NCBI GenBank assembly: GCA_964226865.1
Contig: CAXQUZ010000757.1
Span: 2,370 to 66,369, forward strand
Source of the DNA: Myxococcota bacterium
GTDB lineage: Bacteria > Myxococcota_A > UBA796 > UBA2385
Direction: 5' to 3'
Length of the DNA: 64,000 nt
The position numbers were made by a program, and so were the translations under genes. A model generated the notes under the pieces. That model made no database searches and was not told the DNA's origin. It worked only from the letters and a program-made list of their open reading frames with translations. Within the stretch, counting starts at the first letter, position 1. Every line of letters starts with the position of its first letter. Of this stretch, positions 21,266-22,702 are shown one piece after another.

Positions 21266-22702
21266 TTGCTGTCGCTGCGTCCCATCACCATCCCCGGAGA
21301 CACCCTCGCCCCGGCGCGGGCTCCGGGCCTCAGCCGCACCCTCGCGCGGCTGTCGTCGGGCGTGCGCATCCTCTCGGCCGCCGACGACGCCGCGGGGCTG
21401 GGCGTCGCCACCGACCTGCGCACCGACACCCGCTCGCTGGCGATGGCCCGGCGGAACATCGAAGACGGCATGGCCGTGGTCGACACCGCCGAGGGCGGGC
21501 TGGTCGAGATCACCGACATGCTCCAGCGCATGCGCGAGCTCGCGGTCGCGAGCGCCAGCGAGACCCTCCACGACGAAGAGCGGGCCTACCTCCAGGAGGA
21601 GTACGCCCAGCTCGCCCTCGAGATCGACCGCACGGCCGCGACCACCGAGATGGGCGGCGAGTCCCTGCTGGCCCGGCCCGCCGTCGACATCCTGCTCATC
21701 GCCGACGTCTCGAACAGCATGGCCGCCGAGCTGCCCGTCTTCGCCAGCGAGCTGCCCCTGCTGCGGGCCCGGCTCCAGGCCGAGGGCATCACCGTGCGCA
21801 TCGGCGTCGCCGAGGCCAGCGCCGGCGCCGCCCCGGCGGGCGACCCCGTCGACGGCAGCACCACCCTCCTCGAGCTCACCGACGACGAGACCGCCACCGA
21901 CGCGGCCCTGGCCAGCCTCGCCACCACCGGCGTGGGCACGATGGACCCCTACACCGTGTTCCTCGACCAGGCCGGCATCGTGCCCGTCGACGGCGACAAC
22001 GGCCCCGAGGAGCACCCCTTCGGCGGCCCGGCCGTCGAGAAGATCATCATCTACGCCAGCGACACCGGCCGCGAGACCAGCCTCACCCCCGTCACCGAGA
22101 GCGAGACAGCCGCGGCCCTCGCCAGCGCCGGCTTCCGGGTCTACGCCACCACCACCACGGCCACCCACGCCGCCGTCTTCGACGAGATCACCAGCACCAC
22201 CGGCGGCCTCACCATCGACCTCGACCCGGCCGGCGCCAACGTGGGCCCGCTGATGACCACCATCGGCGACGACATCATCGCCCGGGCGGGCCGCCCCACG
22301 AGCTTCGAGGTCCAGGCGGGCATCCAAGACAGCGACGCCGACCGCATCGACATCGGGGTGCCCACCGACGCCACCACCGCCGGCATGGGGCTGAGCGGCA
22401 CGGCCATCGACACGGCCGCCGACGCCCGCAGCGCCCTCGACGCCCTCGACAGCGCGCTCCACACCGTCGGCCGCCGCAGCGCCGACCTGGGCGCCGCCTG
22501 GAACCGCCTCGACGAGGCCCTCGCCCTCAACCTCGCCGCCACCGAGGCCCTCGCCGGGGCCGAGTCCCGCATCCGCGACGCCGACATGGCCGACGTGGCG
22601 AGCACCCTCGTCGCCCAGCAGATCGTCCAGCAGGCCAGCCTCGCCGCCCGGGCCCAGGCCAACCAGATCCAGGCCGCGGCCATCCCGGCGCTGCTCGGCT
22701 GA
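21266..22702 (+). CDS. Flagellin/FlgL-family protein with a VWA domain in place of the variable region
   Basis: N-terminal LARLSSGVRILSAADDAAGLGVATDLR...MLQRMRELAVASAS and C-terminal LGAAWNRLDEAL...ESRIRDADMADVASTLVAQQIVQQASLAARAQANQ match the flagellin D0/D1 helices. The centre carries ILLIADVSNS (MIDAS DxSxS), KIIIYASDTG and FRVYATTT. The start is uncertain: the ORF ATG at 21107 sits 8 nt from the divergent gene, so I chose the in-frame TTG at 21266. Confidence 0.78.
   Translation: MLSLRPITIPGDTLAPARAPGLSRTLARLSSGVRILSAADDAAGLGVATDLRTDTRSLAMARRNIEDGMAVVDTAEGGLVEITDMLQRMRELAVASASETLHDEERAYLQEEYAQLALEIDRTAATTEMGGESLLARPAVDILLIADVSNSMAAELPVFASELPLLRARLQAEGITVRIGVAEASAGAAPAGDPVDGSTTLLELTDDETATDAALASLATTGVGTMDPYTVFLDQAGIVPVDGDNGPEEHPFGGPAVEKIIIYASDTGRETSLTPVTESETAAALASAGFRVYATTTTATHAAVFDEITSTTGGLTIDLDPAGANVGPLMTTIGDDIIARAGRPTSFEVQAGIQDSDADRIDIGVPTDATTAGMGLSGTAIDTAADARSALDALDSALHTVGRRSADLGAAWNRLDEALALNLAATEALAGAESRIRDADMADVASTLVAQQIVQQASLAARAQANQIQAAAIPALLG

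What the first reader, a model, noticed from the sequence alone, without database searches (positions are those of the whole stretch)
21266..22702. Orphan flagellin-family gene whose hypervariable region is a VWA domain with an intact MIDAS motif
The N- and C-terminal segments carry the conserved flagellin/FlgL helices (LSSGVRILSAADDAAGL...; ...ADVASTLVAQQIVQQASLAARAQANQ). The centre (about 21680-22160) instead reads like a Rossmann-type VWA fold: ILLIADVSNSMAAELP (DxSxS), RIGVAEA, KIIIYASDTGRE and FRVYATTT. No other flagellar, chemotaxis or export gene is present in 64 kb. The neighbours are a small transporter and a DUF4870 membrane protein. The N-terminus upstream of the conserved helix is atypical, with no ATG near the expected start. 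This could be an adhesive filament subunit, or a flagellin fold co-opted for another purpose.
Basis: partly seen in the sequence, partly recalled or inferred. Interest (0 to 1): 0.65.

Follow-up and report, generated by a model that had tools for sequence, protein, structure and literature searches.

The report
Flagellin carrying an integrin-like VWA domain
This gene from an uncultured myxobacterium encodes a flagellin whose variable outer domain is replaced by an integrin-like, metal-dependent adhesion (VWA) domain, and it belongs to a large family that no paper found here describes and that probably makes sticky flagellar filaments.

Summary
Window 21266-22702 (+) is an intact 478-aa gene with a TTG start. 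It has Pfam Flagellin_N and Flagellin_C ends and a roughly 220-residue central VWA domain. Pfam does not detect VWA in the window protein alone. A family profile, the proteins that profile retrieves, and two AlphaFold models do; Foldseek's best non-flagellin matches are integrin beta-subunit I domains. DxSxS and the beta4 Asp are invariant. The canonical MIDAS Thr is replaced by an invariant Asp-Pro-Tyr.

The gene is not a singleton. At least 80 clusters (50% identity) share the flagellin::VWA architecture. Most are high-GC and Myxococcota-like. Some are from other lineages with canonical flagellin N-termini, and one lies directly after a flgL-like gene.

"Orphan" is true only at locus level: about 385 kb of window and related loci hold no other flagellar gene. 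A sigma-28-like motif lies 41 nt upstream of the start. It recurs before most family members and before flagellins in a genuine Myxococcota flagellar locus.

Best reading (confidence about 0.55): a late-class flagellar filament subunit displaying an outward-facing metal-dependent adhesion site. The Pro-rich N-terminal D0 and the unknown flagellar status of the host genome keep a co-opted, non-flagellar role open (about 0.2). It is a new variant of a known kind, of moderate interest.

The parts
21200..21225 (+). Sigma-28-like bipartite promoter motif CTTGAAC-N15-CCGA (CTTGAACCGGGTGGCCGATCGGCCGA), 41 nt upstream of the start codon
   Evidence: It is the only match to this pattern in the 64 kb on either strand; 0.13 are expected by chance. 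The same motif precedes 7 of 11 non-redundant family genes and both flagellins of the flagellar locus L035: 9 of 22 upstream regions against 509 of 20000 background segments. Variants with spacing off by one occur in further loci. Promoter function is inferred, not shown.
21266..22702 (+). Flagellin::VWA gene, 478 aa, TTG start, TGA stop
   Evidence: An identical 478-aa product is called on 6 public metagenome contigs.
21266..21343 (+). N-terminal D0 segment (residues 1-26), degenerate: prolines at positions 6, 10, 16 and 20
   Evidence: It is homologous in register to MSMTVRTNVASMQ... of ordinary relatives. The family averages 1.7 Pro per 26 residues against 0.18 in ordinary relatives. Pairwise identity is 0.285 here against 0.59 for D1. 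AF2 pLDDT is 43-70.
21344..21646 (+). N-terminal D1 helices (residues 27-127), including LSSGVRILSAADDAAGL and the QRMRELAV motif
   Evidence: Pfam Flagellin_N. R88, R90, L92 and A93 are invariant. About 60% identical to ordinary 274-276-aa flagellins.
21647..22315 (+). VWA domain of integrin beta-I-like type (residues 128-350), inserted where D2/D3 normally sit
21704..21730 (+). MIDAS motif 1, D147-V-S149-N-S151-M-A-A-E155 (DxSxSMxxE)
   Evidence: S149, S151 and M152 are invariant; D147 and E155 are at least 90% conserved across 42 sequences. The motif aligns with the DxSxS of the collagen VI and Mfa5 VWA domains.
21941..21952 (+). Invariant M-D227-P228-Y229 at the N-cap of helix alpha3, at the position of the canonical MIDAS Thr
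   Evidence: invariant columns; helix 228-236. A role as a metal ligand is inferred.
22058..22075 (+). S-D266-T-G-R-E270 at the end of beta4: MIDAS motif 3 Asp plus an invariant Glu
   Evidence: Invariant. It aligns with the SDG of Mfa5 and weakly with integrin beta3 LLVFTTD251AKTH (hhalign E=0.017).
22415..22699 (+). C-terminal D1 and D0 helices (residues 384-478), ending ...AIPALLG
   Evidence: Pfam Flagellin_C. AF2 predicts a continuous helix 384-477.
20623..21078 (-). Divergently transcribed small EamA/SMR-like transporter (151 aa). A neighbour, with no demonstrated link.
   Evidence: Conserved only in the window, L001 and L010 subclade.
22781..23752 (+). Downstream DUF4870/MamF_MmsF-like membrane protein (323 aa), same strand, 78-nt gap. 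A neighbour, with no demonstrated link.
   Evidence: Conserved only in the window, L001 and L010 subclade.

Best explanation
The gene encodes a flagellin-family filament subunit in which the usual surface domains (D2/D3) are replaced by an integrin beta-I-like VWA domain.

Shown: the D0/D1 flagellin scaffold, the VWA fold, the invariant acidic and Ser residues at the MIDAS positions, and membership of a large family with a single architecture.

Inferred mechanism:
1. The gene is transcribed from a sigma-28 (FliA)-type late flagellar promoter.
2. The protein has no Sec signal and is exported through the flagellar type III pathway.
3. It polymerises, or co-polymerises with ordinary 275-aa flagellins, through D0/D1.
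4. The N- and C-termini of a VWA domain lie together, on the face opposite the MIDAS. The insertion therefore points the metal site radially outward.
5. The result is a filament studded with divalent-cation-dependent binding sites for an acidic ligand on prey cells, particles, minerals or matrix polymers.

The host is an uncultured, roughly 75% GC Myxococcota. In this subclade the first 20 or so residues of D0 have decayed, so the protein may be a minor or specialised subunit rather than the main propeller protein.
For: Flagellin scaffold: Flagellin_N and Flagellin_C with strong scores, and conserved D1 motifs.

VWA domain:
- AF2 models with pLDDT 85.5 and 90.1.
- Foldseek finds flagellin cores plus integrin beta I domains.
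- Pfam VWA in 15 of 26 family members.
- The VWA-only profile retrieves extracellular adhesin-type multi-VWA proteins that also carry LRR_5, Big_3, CUB, dockerin and Integrin_beta domains. This VWA subtype is therefore a secreted, ligand-binding kind.

Selection: S149, S151, D227-P-Y and D266 are invariant and D147 is at least 90% conserved. ORFs are intact across at least 80 clusters at 50% identity. dN/dS is below 1 for D1 and for the VWA domain.

Link to flagella:
- The sigma-28-like motif at 21200-21225 is unique in the window. It is shared with 7 of 11 family genes and with both flagellins of L035, which also carries FliE, FlgB/C, FliD and FliS.
- The closest D1 relatives are ordinary flagellins in Myxococcota-like contexts.
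- About 55 Myxococcota-like FliD homologues exist.
- Papers report flagellar genes in uncultured Myxococcota MAGs, and flagellin genes among their most highly expressed genes.
- VWA-flagellins with canonical N-termini exist. One of them, P0207, lies directly after an 864-aa flgL-like gene.

No hydrophobic signal peptide.
Against: - No flagellar, motor, chemotaxis or T3SS gene lies in the window or in about 385 kb of related loci. No neighbour is conserved across the family.
- The host genome could not be scanned, so a flagellar regulon is not demonstrated for any genome that carries this subfamily.
- None of the listed FliD homologues lies on a contig whose length matches a known VWA-flagellin contig. 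This is weak evidence, because only about 0.35 matches would be expected.
- N-terminal D0 is Pro-rich and poorly conserved, and C-terminal D0 is also relaxed compared with ordinary relatives. This sits poorly with a canonical inner tube.
- The gene evolves fairly fast (omega 0.31-0.56, NG86, in a GC3-saturated genome).
- The promoter motif was defined post hoc, and no sigma factor was identified.
- Metal binding, export and polymerisation are all untested.
Confidence: 0.55

Rival explanations
1. Co-opted flagellin in a host that has lost flagella. The protein is exported by another route, for example the non-flagellar T3SS found in Myxococcota. It acts as a non-motility adhesive fibre or as a cell-surface or monomeric adhesin, with D0/D1 serving only as a coiled-coil stalk or oligomerisation module.
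For: - The gene is an orphan at locus level in every high-GC context examined.
- Cultured myxobacteria lack flagella (established knowledge).
- Myxococcota non-flagellar T3SS operons retain FliO homologues.
- N-terminal D0 is degenerate, with 1.7 Pro per 26 residues, and D0 is more relaxed than D1.
- There is a precedent: Sphingomonas sp. A1 flagellin homologues p5 and p6 act as cell-surface alginate receptors (PDB 2zbi and 3k8v among the hits).
Against: - The sigma-28-like promoter motif is conserved across divergent family members and shared with a true flagellar locus.
- The D1 polymerisation motifs and the C-terminal D0 are retained.
- The nearest relatives are ordinary flagellins in tandem arrays.
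- Flagellated Myxococcota are documented.
- No T3SS gene lies nearby.
Confidence: 0.2
2. A true filament subunit in which the VWA domain is structural rather than adhesive. Neighbouring outer domains contact each other, possibly bridged by metal ions, to form a sheath or dimer lattice. This would stiffen the filament or change its waveform in viscous or particle-rich habitats.
For: - Flagellin outer domains are known to dimerise or form sheaths that change motility (Kreutzberger et al. 2022, PMC8931119, listed).
- There are many invariant acidic residues beyond the MIDAS (E155, D193, D196, E270). These could form inter-subunit metal sites.
- The domain size is uniform across the family.
Against: - The closest non-flagellin relatives of this VWA subtype are adhesin-like surface proteins.
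- The MIDAS face of a VWA domain lies opposite its termini, so it points away from the filament (established VWA topology).
- No model of the assembled lattice was available.
Confidence: 0.12
3. A non-functional relic, or an intracellular VWA protein (of the MoxR/AAA+-partner type) that merely retains flagellin-like helices.
For: - omega is moderately high (0.31-0.56).
- N-terminal D0 has decayed.
- No Shine-Dalgarno sequence is evident, and the start codon is TTG.
Against: - ORFs are intact, with the same length and invariant motifs across dozens of divergent clusters.
- Two paralogues are retained in one MAG.
- No AAA+/MoxR partner lies nearby.
- The VWA subtype clusters with extracellular adhesins.
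- An upstream motif is conserved.
Confidence: 0.05

Closest known systems
Flagellinolysin (proteolytic flagellin, e.g. Clostridium haemolyticum FliA(H); Eckhard et al. 2017, cited in PMC11532411)
   Same: Both are flagellins with conserved D0/D1 in which the hypervariable region is a complete functional domain borrowed from non-flagellar proteins. Every filament subunit therefore displays an activity.
   Different: Flagellinolysin's inserted domain is a zinc metallopeptidase with HExxH. Here it is a non-catalytic VWA/MIDAS domain, and the sequence has no HExxH. The NCBIfam flagella_HExxH model scores 30 bits against a cut-off of 205. Assembly into filaments has been shown for flagellinolysin but not for this protein.
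Canonical flagellins (Salmonella/E. coli FliC, and ordinary 274-276-aa Myxococcota-type flagellins such as P0042-P0056 and P0102)
   Same: The D0/D1 helical core, the AADDAAG and QRMRELA motifs, and a C-terminal ...LLG/R. Identity to the short relatives is about 60% in N-terminal D1. The type of upstream motif is also shared.
   Different: The outer domain is a VWA fold rather than being absent or a beta-rich D2/D3. N-terminal D0 has lost the (I/V)(N/R)TN signature and is Pro-rich. The gene is never adjacent to fliD, fliS or another flagellin in the high-GC family.
Integrin beta-subunit I (beta-A) domain and other MIDAS-containing VWA domains
   Same: - The same fold: Foldseek E about 3e-9, TM 0.60-0.69.
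- A DxSxSM motif like beta3 DLSYSM.
- The beta4 Asp aligns with beta3 D251.
- An acidic residue replaces the Thr used by alpha-I and vWF-A domains.
- Both are domains inserted into a host domain through adjacent termini.
   Different: Sequence identity is only 10-17%. The specificity loop, the hybrid-domain context and the alpha-subunit partner are all absent. Equivalents of the ADMIDAS and SyMBS sites are suggested only by invariant acidic residues and were not tested.
VWA adhesins carried on other bacterial filaments (P. gingivalis Mfa5, PDB 6tnj/6to1; sortase-pilus tip adhesins such as RrgA and GBS104; PilY1)
   Same: A MIDAS-type VWA domain is presented on an extracellular filament for adhesion. 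Mfa5 VWA is among the best PDB sequence matches to the family profile (E=0.0023).
   Different: Those are accessory or tip proteins present in one or a few copies per fibre, and they are built on unrelated pilus systems. Here the VWA domain is part of the repeating subunit of a flagellin-type polymer.
Sphingomonas sp. A1 flagellin homologues p5/p6 (PDB 2zbi, 3k8v, 3k8w)
   Same: Flagellin-family proteins for which a ligand-binding, cell-surface role apart from propulsion has been reported.
   Different: p5 and p6 bind alginate through a beta-domain, not a VWA domain. The strain does have flagellar clusters and can form flagella.

Membership tests
Bacterial flagellin (FliC/FlaA family) | N-terminal helical region matching Pfam Flagellin_N above the gathering score | tested here: met
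   103.1 bits against a cut-off of 26.6, E=1.7e-29. The match starts at profile position 21.
Bacterial flagellin (FliC/FlaA family) | C-terminal helical region matching Pfam Flagellin_C above the gathering score | tested here: met
   49.2 bits against a cut-off of 23, E=6.8e-13. AF2 predicts a long C-terminal helix, 384-477.
Bacterial flagellin (FliC/FlaA family) | Conserved N-terminal D0 helix (first ~30 residues, hydrophobic heptads, xINTN-type start) that forms the inner tube | tested here: inconclusive
   The segment has the right length and is homologous in register. It has prolines at 6, 10, 16 and 20, low pLDDT, and only 0.285 pairwise identity within the family.
Bacterial flagellin (FliC/FlaA family) | Closer to flagellin than to the hook-filament junction protein FlgL | tested here: met
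   NCBIfam flagellin models score 1.5e-48 to 1e-32, against 2.4e-25 for TIGR02550 FlgL. All are below their curated equivalog cut-offs.
Bacterial flagellin (FliC/FlaA family) | Encoded in a genome with a flagellar export and basal-body gene set; exported by the flagellar T3SS with FliS; polymerised under FliD | not testable with these tools
   Only 64 kb of the host is available, and it contains none of these genes. The whole MAGs could not be scanned. The indirect evidence is a sigma-28-like motif.
VWA (von Willebrand factor type A) superfamily | Six-stranded beta-sheet with flanking helices, in the order b1-a1-b2-b3-a2-a3-b4-a4-b5-a5-b6-a6 | tested here: met
   AF2 secondary structure. Foldseek matches integrin beta I and TFIIH p44/Ssl1 VWA domains at probability 1.00 and TM 0.56-0.69.
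VWA (von Willebrand factor type A) superfamily | Sequence match to Pfam VWA models | tested here: inconclusive
   The window protein has no hit at E<=1. The family gives 15 of 26 members with PF00092 (best 3.5e-7). The family profile finds proteins with VWA at E=1e-65.
VWA (von Willebrand factor type A) superfamily | MIDAS motif 1, DxSxS, after beta1 | tested here: met
   D147-V-S149-N-S151. Both Ser are invariant and the Asp is at least 90% conserved. The motif aligns with DxSxS of the collagen VI and Mfa5 VWA domains.
VWA (von Willebrand factor type A) superfamily | MIDAS motif 2, the conserved Thr at the start of alpha3 | tested here: not met
   The position carries an invariant D227-P228-Y229 instead. 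An acidic residue at this site is the integrin beta-I solution (E220; my knowledge). Whether D227 binds the metal was not tested.
VWA (von Willebrand factor type A) superfamily | MIDAS motif 3, the Asp at the end of beta4 | tested here: met
   D266 is invariant. It aligns with the SDG of Mfa5 and with beta3 D251 (weak, E=0.017).
VWA (von Willebrand factor type A) superfamily | Actual divalent-cation binding | not testable with these tools
   This needs biochemistry or a structure solved with metal bound.
Flagellinolysin (flagella_HExxH) | HExxH zinc-peptidase motif in the central domain | tested here: not met
   There is no HExxH in the sequence. NF033876 scores 30 bits against a cut-off of 205, and the match covers only the C-terminal flagellin part.

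The most novel reading that the evidence does not exclude
The high-GC Myxococcota subfamily, including this gene, works in organisms that no longer build a motor-driven flagellum. In this reading a flagellin scaffold with a decayed D0 tip has been turned into a secreted, sigma-28-controlled, integrin-like adhesive fibre or surface adhesin used for prey or particle capture. Export might go through the needle-less type III system of myxobacteria. This would be a clear case of a flagellin being reused outside motility, and of an integrin beta-type MIDAS domain polymerised along a bacterial fibre.
Probability: 0.2. Interest if true: 0.8.

Novelty: new variant of a known kind. Interest (0 to 1): 0.52.

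Why it matters
Flagellin outer domains are known to be swappable, and a few carry borrowed activities: a peptidase, pectate-lyase-like folds and WD40 (PMC11532411). A VWA/MIDAS outer domain would add metal-dependent, integrin-style ligand binding to that list.

It would be repeated thousands of times along a filament, giving a very high-avidity adhesive surface. The family is large, at least 80 clusters at 50% identity, and no paper found in the searchable literature describes it.

It is concentrated in uncultured Myxococcota, a phylum classically regarded as non-flagellated predators. It therefore bears on how these organisms attach to prey or particles, and on whether flagellar parts have been repurposed there.

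The shared sigma-28-like motif also gives a handle for defining a late flagellar regulon in these lineages.

Tried and rejected
1. Pfam and NCBIfam on the window protein alone give no VWA hit. A family alignment was needed.
2. A PDB sequence search with the VWA profile gave only marginal hits (collagen VI and Mfa5 at about 2e-3, integrin beta8 at about 0.4). hhalign against human integrin beta3 aligned only the beta4/MIDAS-Asp stretch (E=0.017). The integrin-beta likeness therefore rests mainly on the fold.
3. Search for a conserved gene partner: none beyond the closest subclade (EamA and DUF4870 in the window, L001 and L010). I rejected a functional link with the neighbours.
4. Attempts to show genome-level co-occurrence with flagellar genes all failed:
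   - cluster-member look-up gave no accessions;
   - ordinary-flagellin contigs came from other assemblies;
   - a FliD search from L035 found no hit on a contig whose length matches a VWA-flagellin contig.
   This question is unresolved.
5. The first related-loci run with the broad alignment failed because no stretch was conserved enough. It was repeated with 8 closer sequences.
6. The standard sigma-70 promoter and terminator scan found nothing around the gene.
7. The loose motif CTYRA-N17-CCGA is inflated in coding DNA by CTC-GAC/GAG codons: 13 window hits against 1.6 in shuffles. I therefore used an empirical background from random locus segments and the stricter pattern.
8. dN/dS (NG86) is hard to read at 95% GC3. 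Neighbouring genes range from 0.18 to 0.93, so it only excludes a pseudogene-like drift.
9. The supplementary tables of the Zhenbei seamount paper held nothing searchable on flagellar genes.
10. The giant-flagellin and FlgL readings were rejected on length, architecture and NCBIfam ranking.
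Full report
**1. What is in the sequence**

The + strand carries an ORF at 21107-22702. The real start is the TTG at 21266.
- From that codon the orthologues in L001 (GTG) and L010 (ATG) align codon for codon. Upstream, the sequences diverge with indels.
- Public gene calls give the same 478-aa product on six metagenome contigs.
- GC is about 75% across the whole window.
- There is no hydrophobic N-terminal signal, no HExxH, and no obvious Shine-Dalgarno sequence.

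**2. Flagellin ends**

- Pfam gives Flagellin_N (E=1.7e-29) and Flagellin_C (E=6.8e-13), both well above their gathering scores.
- NCBIfam ranks flagellin models (down to 1.5e-48) above FlgL (2.4e-25).
- PDB flagellins match at up to 3.5e-35, in two pieces that flank residues ~136-337.
- The Flagellin_N match begins only at profile position 21.
- Against the nearest ordinary flagellins (MSMTVRTNVASMQAAGQL...LSRTLERISSG) the family N-terminus (MLSIRTPTALRFGAAL...LSRSLERLSSG) is homologous in register but degraded. In the window's subclade it reads MLSLRPITIPGDTLAPARAPGLSRTLARLSSG.

Quantified:

| Measure | VWA family | Ordinary relatives |
|---|---|---|
| Pro in the first 26 residues | 1.7 | 0.18 |
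| Pairwise identity, N-terminal D0 | 0.285 | 0.48 |
| Pairwise identity, N-terminal D1 | 0.59 | 0.72 |
| Pairwise identity, C-terminal D0 | 0.43 | 0.70 |

D0 is therefore relaxed relative to D1. D1 keeps the classic motifs: AADDAAG, and QRMRELAV with R88 and R90 invariant.

**3. The centre is a VWA domain**

- The window protein alone gives no Pfam VWA hit at E<=1.
- An alignment of 42 full-length relatives (35-75% identity) was built.
- From a 26-sequence subset, the central domains hit PF00092 in 15 of 26 members (best 3.5e-7) and VWA_2 in 7 of 26. There are scattered hits to Integrin_beta and vWA_SIBA-E.
- AlphaFold on the full alignment (pLDDT 85.5) and on the domain alone (pLDDT 90.1, pTM 0.90) gives the canonical VWA strand and helix order.
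- For the whole protein, Foldseek against PDB returns flagellin cores plus integrin beta-subunit I domains.
- For the domain alone it returns integrin beta I domains first (E about 3e-9, TM 0.60-0.69), followed by TFIIH p44/Ssl1 VWA domains.
- The family profile against PDB sequences gives marginal hits to collagen VI and Mfa5 VWA domains. In these the DxSxS and the SD(G) motifs align.

**4. MIDAS**

- Motif 1 (D147-x-S149-x-S151) and motif 3 (D266 in IIIYASDTGRE) are conserved; the two Ser and D266 are invariant, and D147 is at least 90% conserved.
- The canonical Thr of motif 2 is not present. Its place, at the N-cap of helix alpha3, holds an invariant D227-P228-Y229.
- M152, D193, D196 and E270 are invariant; E155 is at least 90% conserved.
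- DxSxSMxxE recalls integrin beta3 DLSYSMKDD, and MDPY recalls RDAPE(220).
- Profile alignment supports only the D266-D251 equivalence, and weakly (E=0.017).

'Intact MIDAS' is therefore partly confirmed: two of three motifs are canonical, and the third is a conserved acidic variant. Metal binding itself is untested.

**5. It is a large family, not a singleton**

A search of 1.84 billion representatives with the VWA-only profile found 3021 hits at E<=1e-3 and 62 at E<=1e-30. The top 150 break down as follows:
- 66 new representatives, plus those seen earlier, have both flagellin ends with the VWA domain at about residues 130-345. With 14 fragments, this makes at least 80 clusters at 50% identity.
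- 62 are non-flagellin proteins, mostly large, some with up to 13 VWA copies.

Six of these non-flagellin proteins were scanned with Pfam. Five carry VWA-type domains (VWA and/or VWA_4; Integrin_beta in two), some with LRR_5, Big_3/4, CUB or dockerin; the sixth matched only Cu-binding MopE motifs. This VWA subtype is therefore typical of extracellular adhesin-like proteins.

Several VWA-flagellins have canonical N-termini, for example P0204 (MVRINTNINS...), P0207, P0209, P0215 and P0194. P0207 comes from a 36% GC contig and lies directly after an 864-aa flgL-like gene. P0204 has no flagellar neighbour.

**6. Host and context**

The window encodes:
- methylmalonyl-CoA mutase and MeaB;
- an MbnP and MauG-like pair;
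- a DUF2087 protein;
- a small EamA-like transporter, divergent from the flagellin gene;
- a DUF4870 membrane protein downstream;
- a GDSL hydrolase;
- giant proteins with no Pfam hit;
- a hybrid kinase.

There is no flagellar, chemotaxis, motor or T3SS gene.

tblastn with 45 E. coli K-12 flagellar, chemotaxis and motor proteins found only flagellin, plus generic receiver-domain hits, in the window and 27 related loci, about 385 kb in total.

The closest named relatives of the window's MCM are Myxococcales, Myxococcota, Sandaracinus and Polyangiaceae MAGs at 77-80% identity. Family members are labelled 'flagellin [Myxococcota bacterium]'.

One MAG, Myxococcota bacterium LOGT_bin.0087 (GCA_942491145.1), carries two paralogues at different loci.

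Only the closest subclade (window, L001, L010) shares the EamA and DUF4870 neighbours. No neighbour is conserved across the family.

**7. Is the host flagellated?**

This could not be answered directly. Four indirect points bear on it.
- (a) Flagellated Myxococcota exist. L035 (GCA_040080105.1) carries FliE, FlgB, FlgC, two flagellins, FliD and FliS. About 55 Myxococcota-like FliD homologues exist. Two papers report flagellar genes in uncultured Myxococcota MAGs, one of them with flagellin genes among the most highly expressed genes.
- (b) The nearest D1 relatives (about 60% identity) are ordinary 274-276-aa flagellins, often in tandem, in Myxococcota-like contexts.
- (c) None of the listed FliD hits lies on a contig whose length equals that of a known VWA-flagellin contig. 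That is only weak negative evidence.
- (d) A promoter-like motif, described next.

**8. A sigma-28-like motif**

- Upstream of both L035 flagellins, and of the window gene, lies CT[TC]GA[AT][CT]-N15-CCGA.
- In the window it occurs once in 64 kb on both strands, at 21200-21225, 41 nt before the start. The chance expectation is 0.13.
- I enumerated exact 5-mer/gap/4-mer pairs de novo over 22 non-redundant flagellin upstream regions. Only three patterns were present in four or more regions, and all three are versions of this motif: CTTGA-N17-CCGA, CTCAA-N17-CCGA and GCTCA-N18-CCGA.
- The merged pattern is present in 9 of 22 upstream regions: 7 of 11 high-GC VWA-flagellin genes, plus both L035 flagellins. 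The background is 509 of 20000 random segments from the same loci (Fisher p=1.8e-9, not corrected for post hoc choice).
- Allowing the spacing to vary by one adds L005 (...AACCGATAAG), L026 and L028, and the ordinary flagellins L017a/c and L034a (GCCGATAAC).
- The register T(G/A)A(A/C)-N16-CCGA equals that of the enterobacterial FliA consensus TAAA-N16-CCGATAA (my knowledge).
- A looser form is inflated by Leu-Asp/Glu codons in coding DNA. That is why I used the empirical background.

I read this as a FliA-type late promoter. It is an inference, and no sigma factor was identified.

**9. Selection**

- Between the window and its orthologues in L001 and L010, omega (NG86) is 0.31-0.56 overall.
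- By segment it is 0.23-0.36 for N-terminal D1, 0.27-0.47 for the VWA domain, and higher for the C-terminal spoke and D1.
- Neighbouring genes range from 0.18 to 0.93.

With GC3 near 95% these values are rough. They exclude neutral decay and show a fairly fast-evolving protein.

**10. Interpretation**

The best-supported reading is a late-class flagellar filament subunit, or co-subunit, whose outer domain is an outward-facing, integrin beta-like MIDAS domain. This would give the filament divalent-cation-dependent adhesion.

The outward orientation follows from the established VWA topology: the termini sit together, opposite the MIDAS.

Rival readings are:
- co-option in a non-flagellated host;
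- a structural, metal-bridged sheath;
- a relic or intracellular protein.

The decayed N-terminal D0 in this subclade remains unexplained. It is the main reason to keep the co-option reading at about 0.2.

**11. Novelty**

Searches combining flagellin with 'von Willebrand', 'VWA domain', 'outer domain' or 'metal ion-dependent adhesion site' found no paper describing this architecture.

The systematic survey of flagellin outer domains mentions peptidase, pectate-lyase and WD40 inserts, but no VWA, Rossmann or integrin-like fold.

The architecture is visible in automatic annotation: P0040 carries precomputed PF00092 plus the flagellin domains. I therefore class it as a new variant of a known kind, namely functionalised flagellins, of which flagellinolysin is the precedent. 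It is of moderate interest.

Noticed in passing
window 25008-42359 (- strand): A roughly 17-kb run of very large minus-strand ORFs with GC3 of 0.89-0.97. They are about 1190, 1357, 2484 and 960 aa between stop codons, some overlap, and their boundaries are unresolved. None has a Pfam hit at E<=1e-3. They are Ala/Leu/Gly/Pro-rich but not obviously repetitive.
   Followed up: partly
window 14238-16528 (+): An MbnP-family protein (Pfam E=9e-34) is followed by a MauG/di-haem peroxidase-like gene. The pair is syntenic with L001 (MbnP + CCP_MauG) and resembles copper-acquisition MbnP/MbnH pairs.
   Followed up: no
L010 (CALOBC010000059.1) and L013/L004 (CALOBC010000038.1): One Myxococcota MAG (LOGT_bin.0087, GCA_942491145.1) carries two divergent VWA-flagellin paralogues. 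Their central domains are 79% and 44% identical to the window's. They lie on different contigs in unrelated contexts, and both have the upstream sigma-28-like motif (for the second paralogue, seen in L029, a metagenome contig that appears to carry the same gene).
   Followed up: partly
L036 2303-6537 (36% GC metagenome contig): In a low-GC organism, an 864-aa FlgL-like protein with a giant central region is followed 47 nt later by a 530-aa VWA-flagellin with a canonical N-terminus (MALQIYTNTS...). Genes that look PilM/PilO-like by eye come next. The VWA insertion in flagellin is therefore not confined to Myxococcota.
   Followed up: partly
P0129, P0160, P0181, P0191 (proteins): Giant non-flagellin proteins (1125-4294 aa) carry up to 13 tandem copies of the same VWA subtype. 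Pfam scans of P0129, P0160 and P0181 found VWA domains, with Integrin_beta in the first two and LRR_5, Big_3, CUB and dockerin in P0181. This subtype is the likely source pool of the flagellin insert.
   Followed up: partly
L016, L017, L031-L034: The ordinary 274-276-aa flagellins closest to this family also lie away from other flagellar genes, often as tandem pairs or triplets. Their neighbours are Myxococcota-type genes (Pkinase + FGE-sulfatase, FG-GAP/MopE, HDOD).
   Followed up: partly
L035 1722-1747 (-): A third copy of the CTYGAWY-N15-CCGA motif lies inside a 721-aa TPR gene, about 870 nt upstream of flgB-flgC-fliE in the Myxococcota flagellar locus. It could be an internal promoter or a chance match.
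   Followed up: no
window 28340-28349 (+): This is the second and only other copy in the window of the extended -10-like decamer GATCGGCCGA. It lies inside the giant-ORF block, and no -35-like element was checked.
   Followed up: no
window 935-5989 (-) and 46936-48294 (-): The first region holds the methylmalonyl-CoA mutase small and large subunits plus the MeaB GTPase. The second holds a separate CobW-family GTPase next to a Fur-family regulator. Both are ordinary housekeeping context. The mutase was used only to place the host among Myxococcota.
   Followed up: partly
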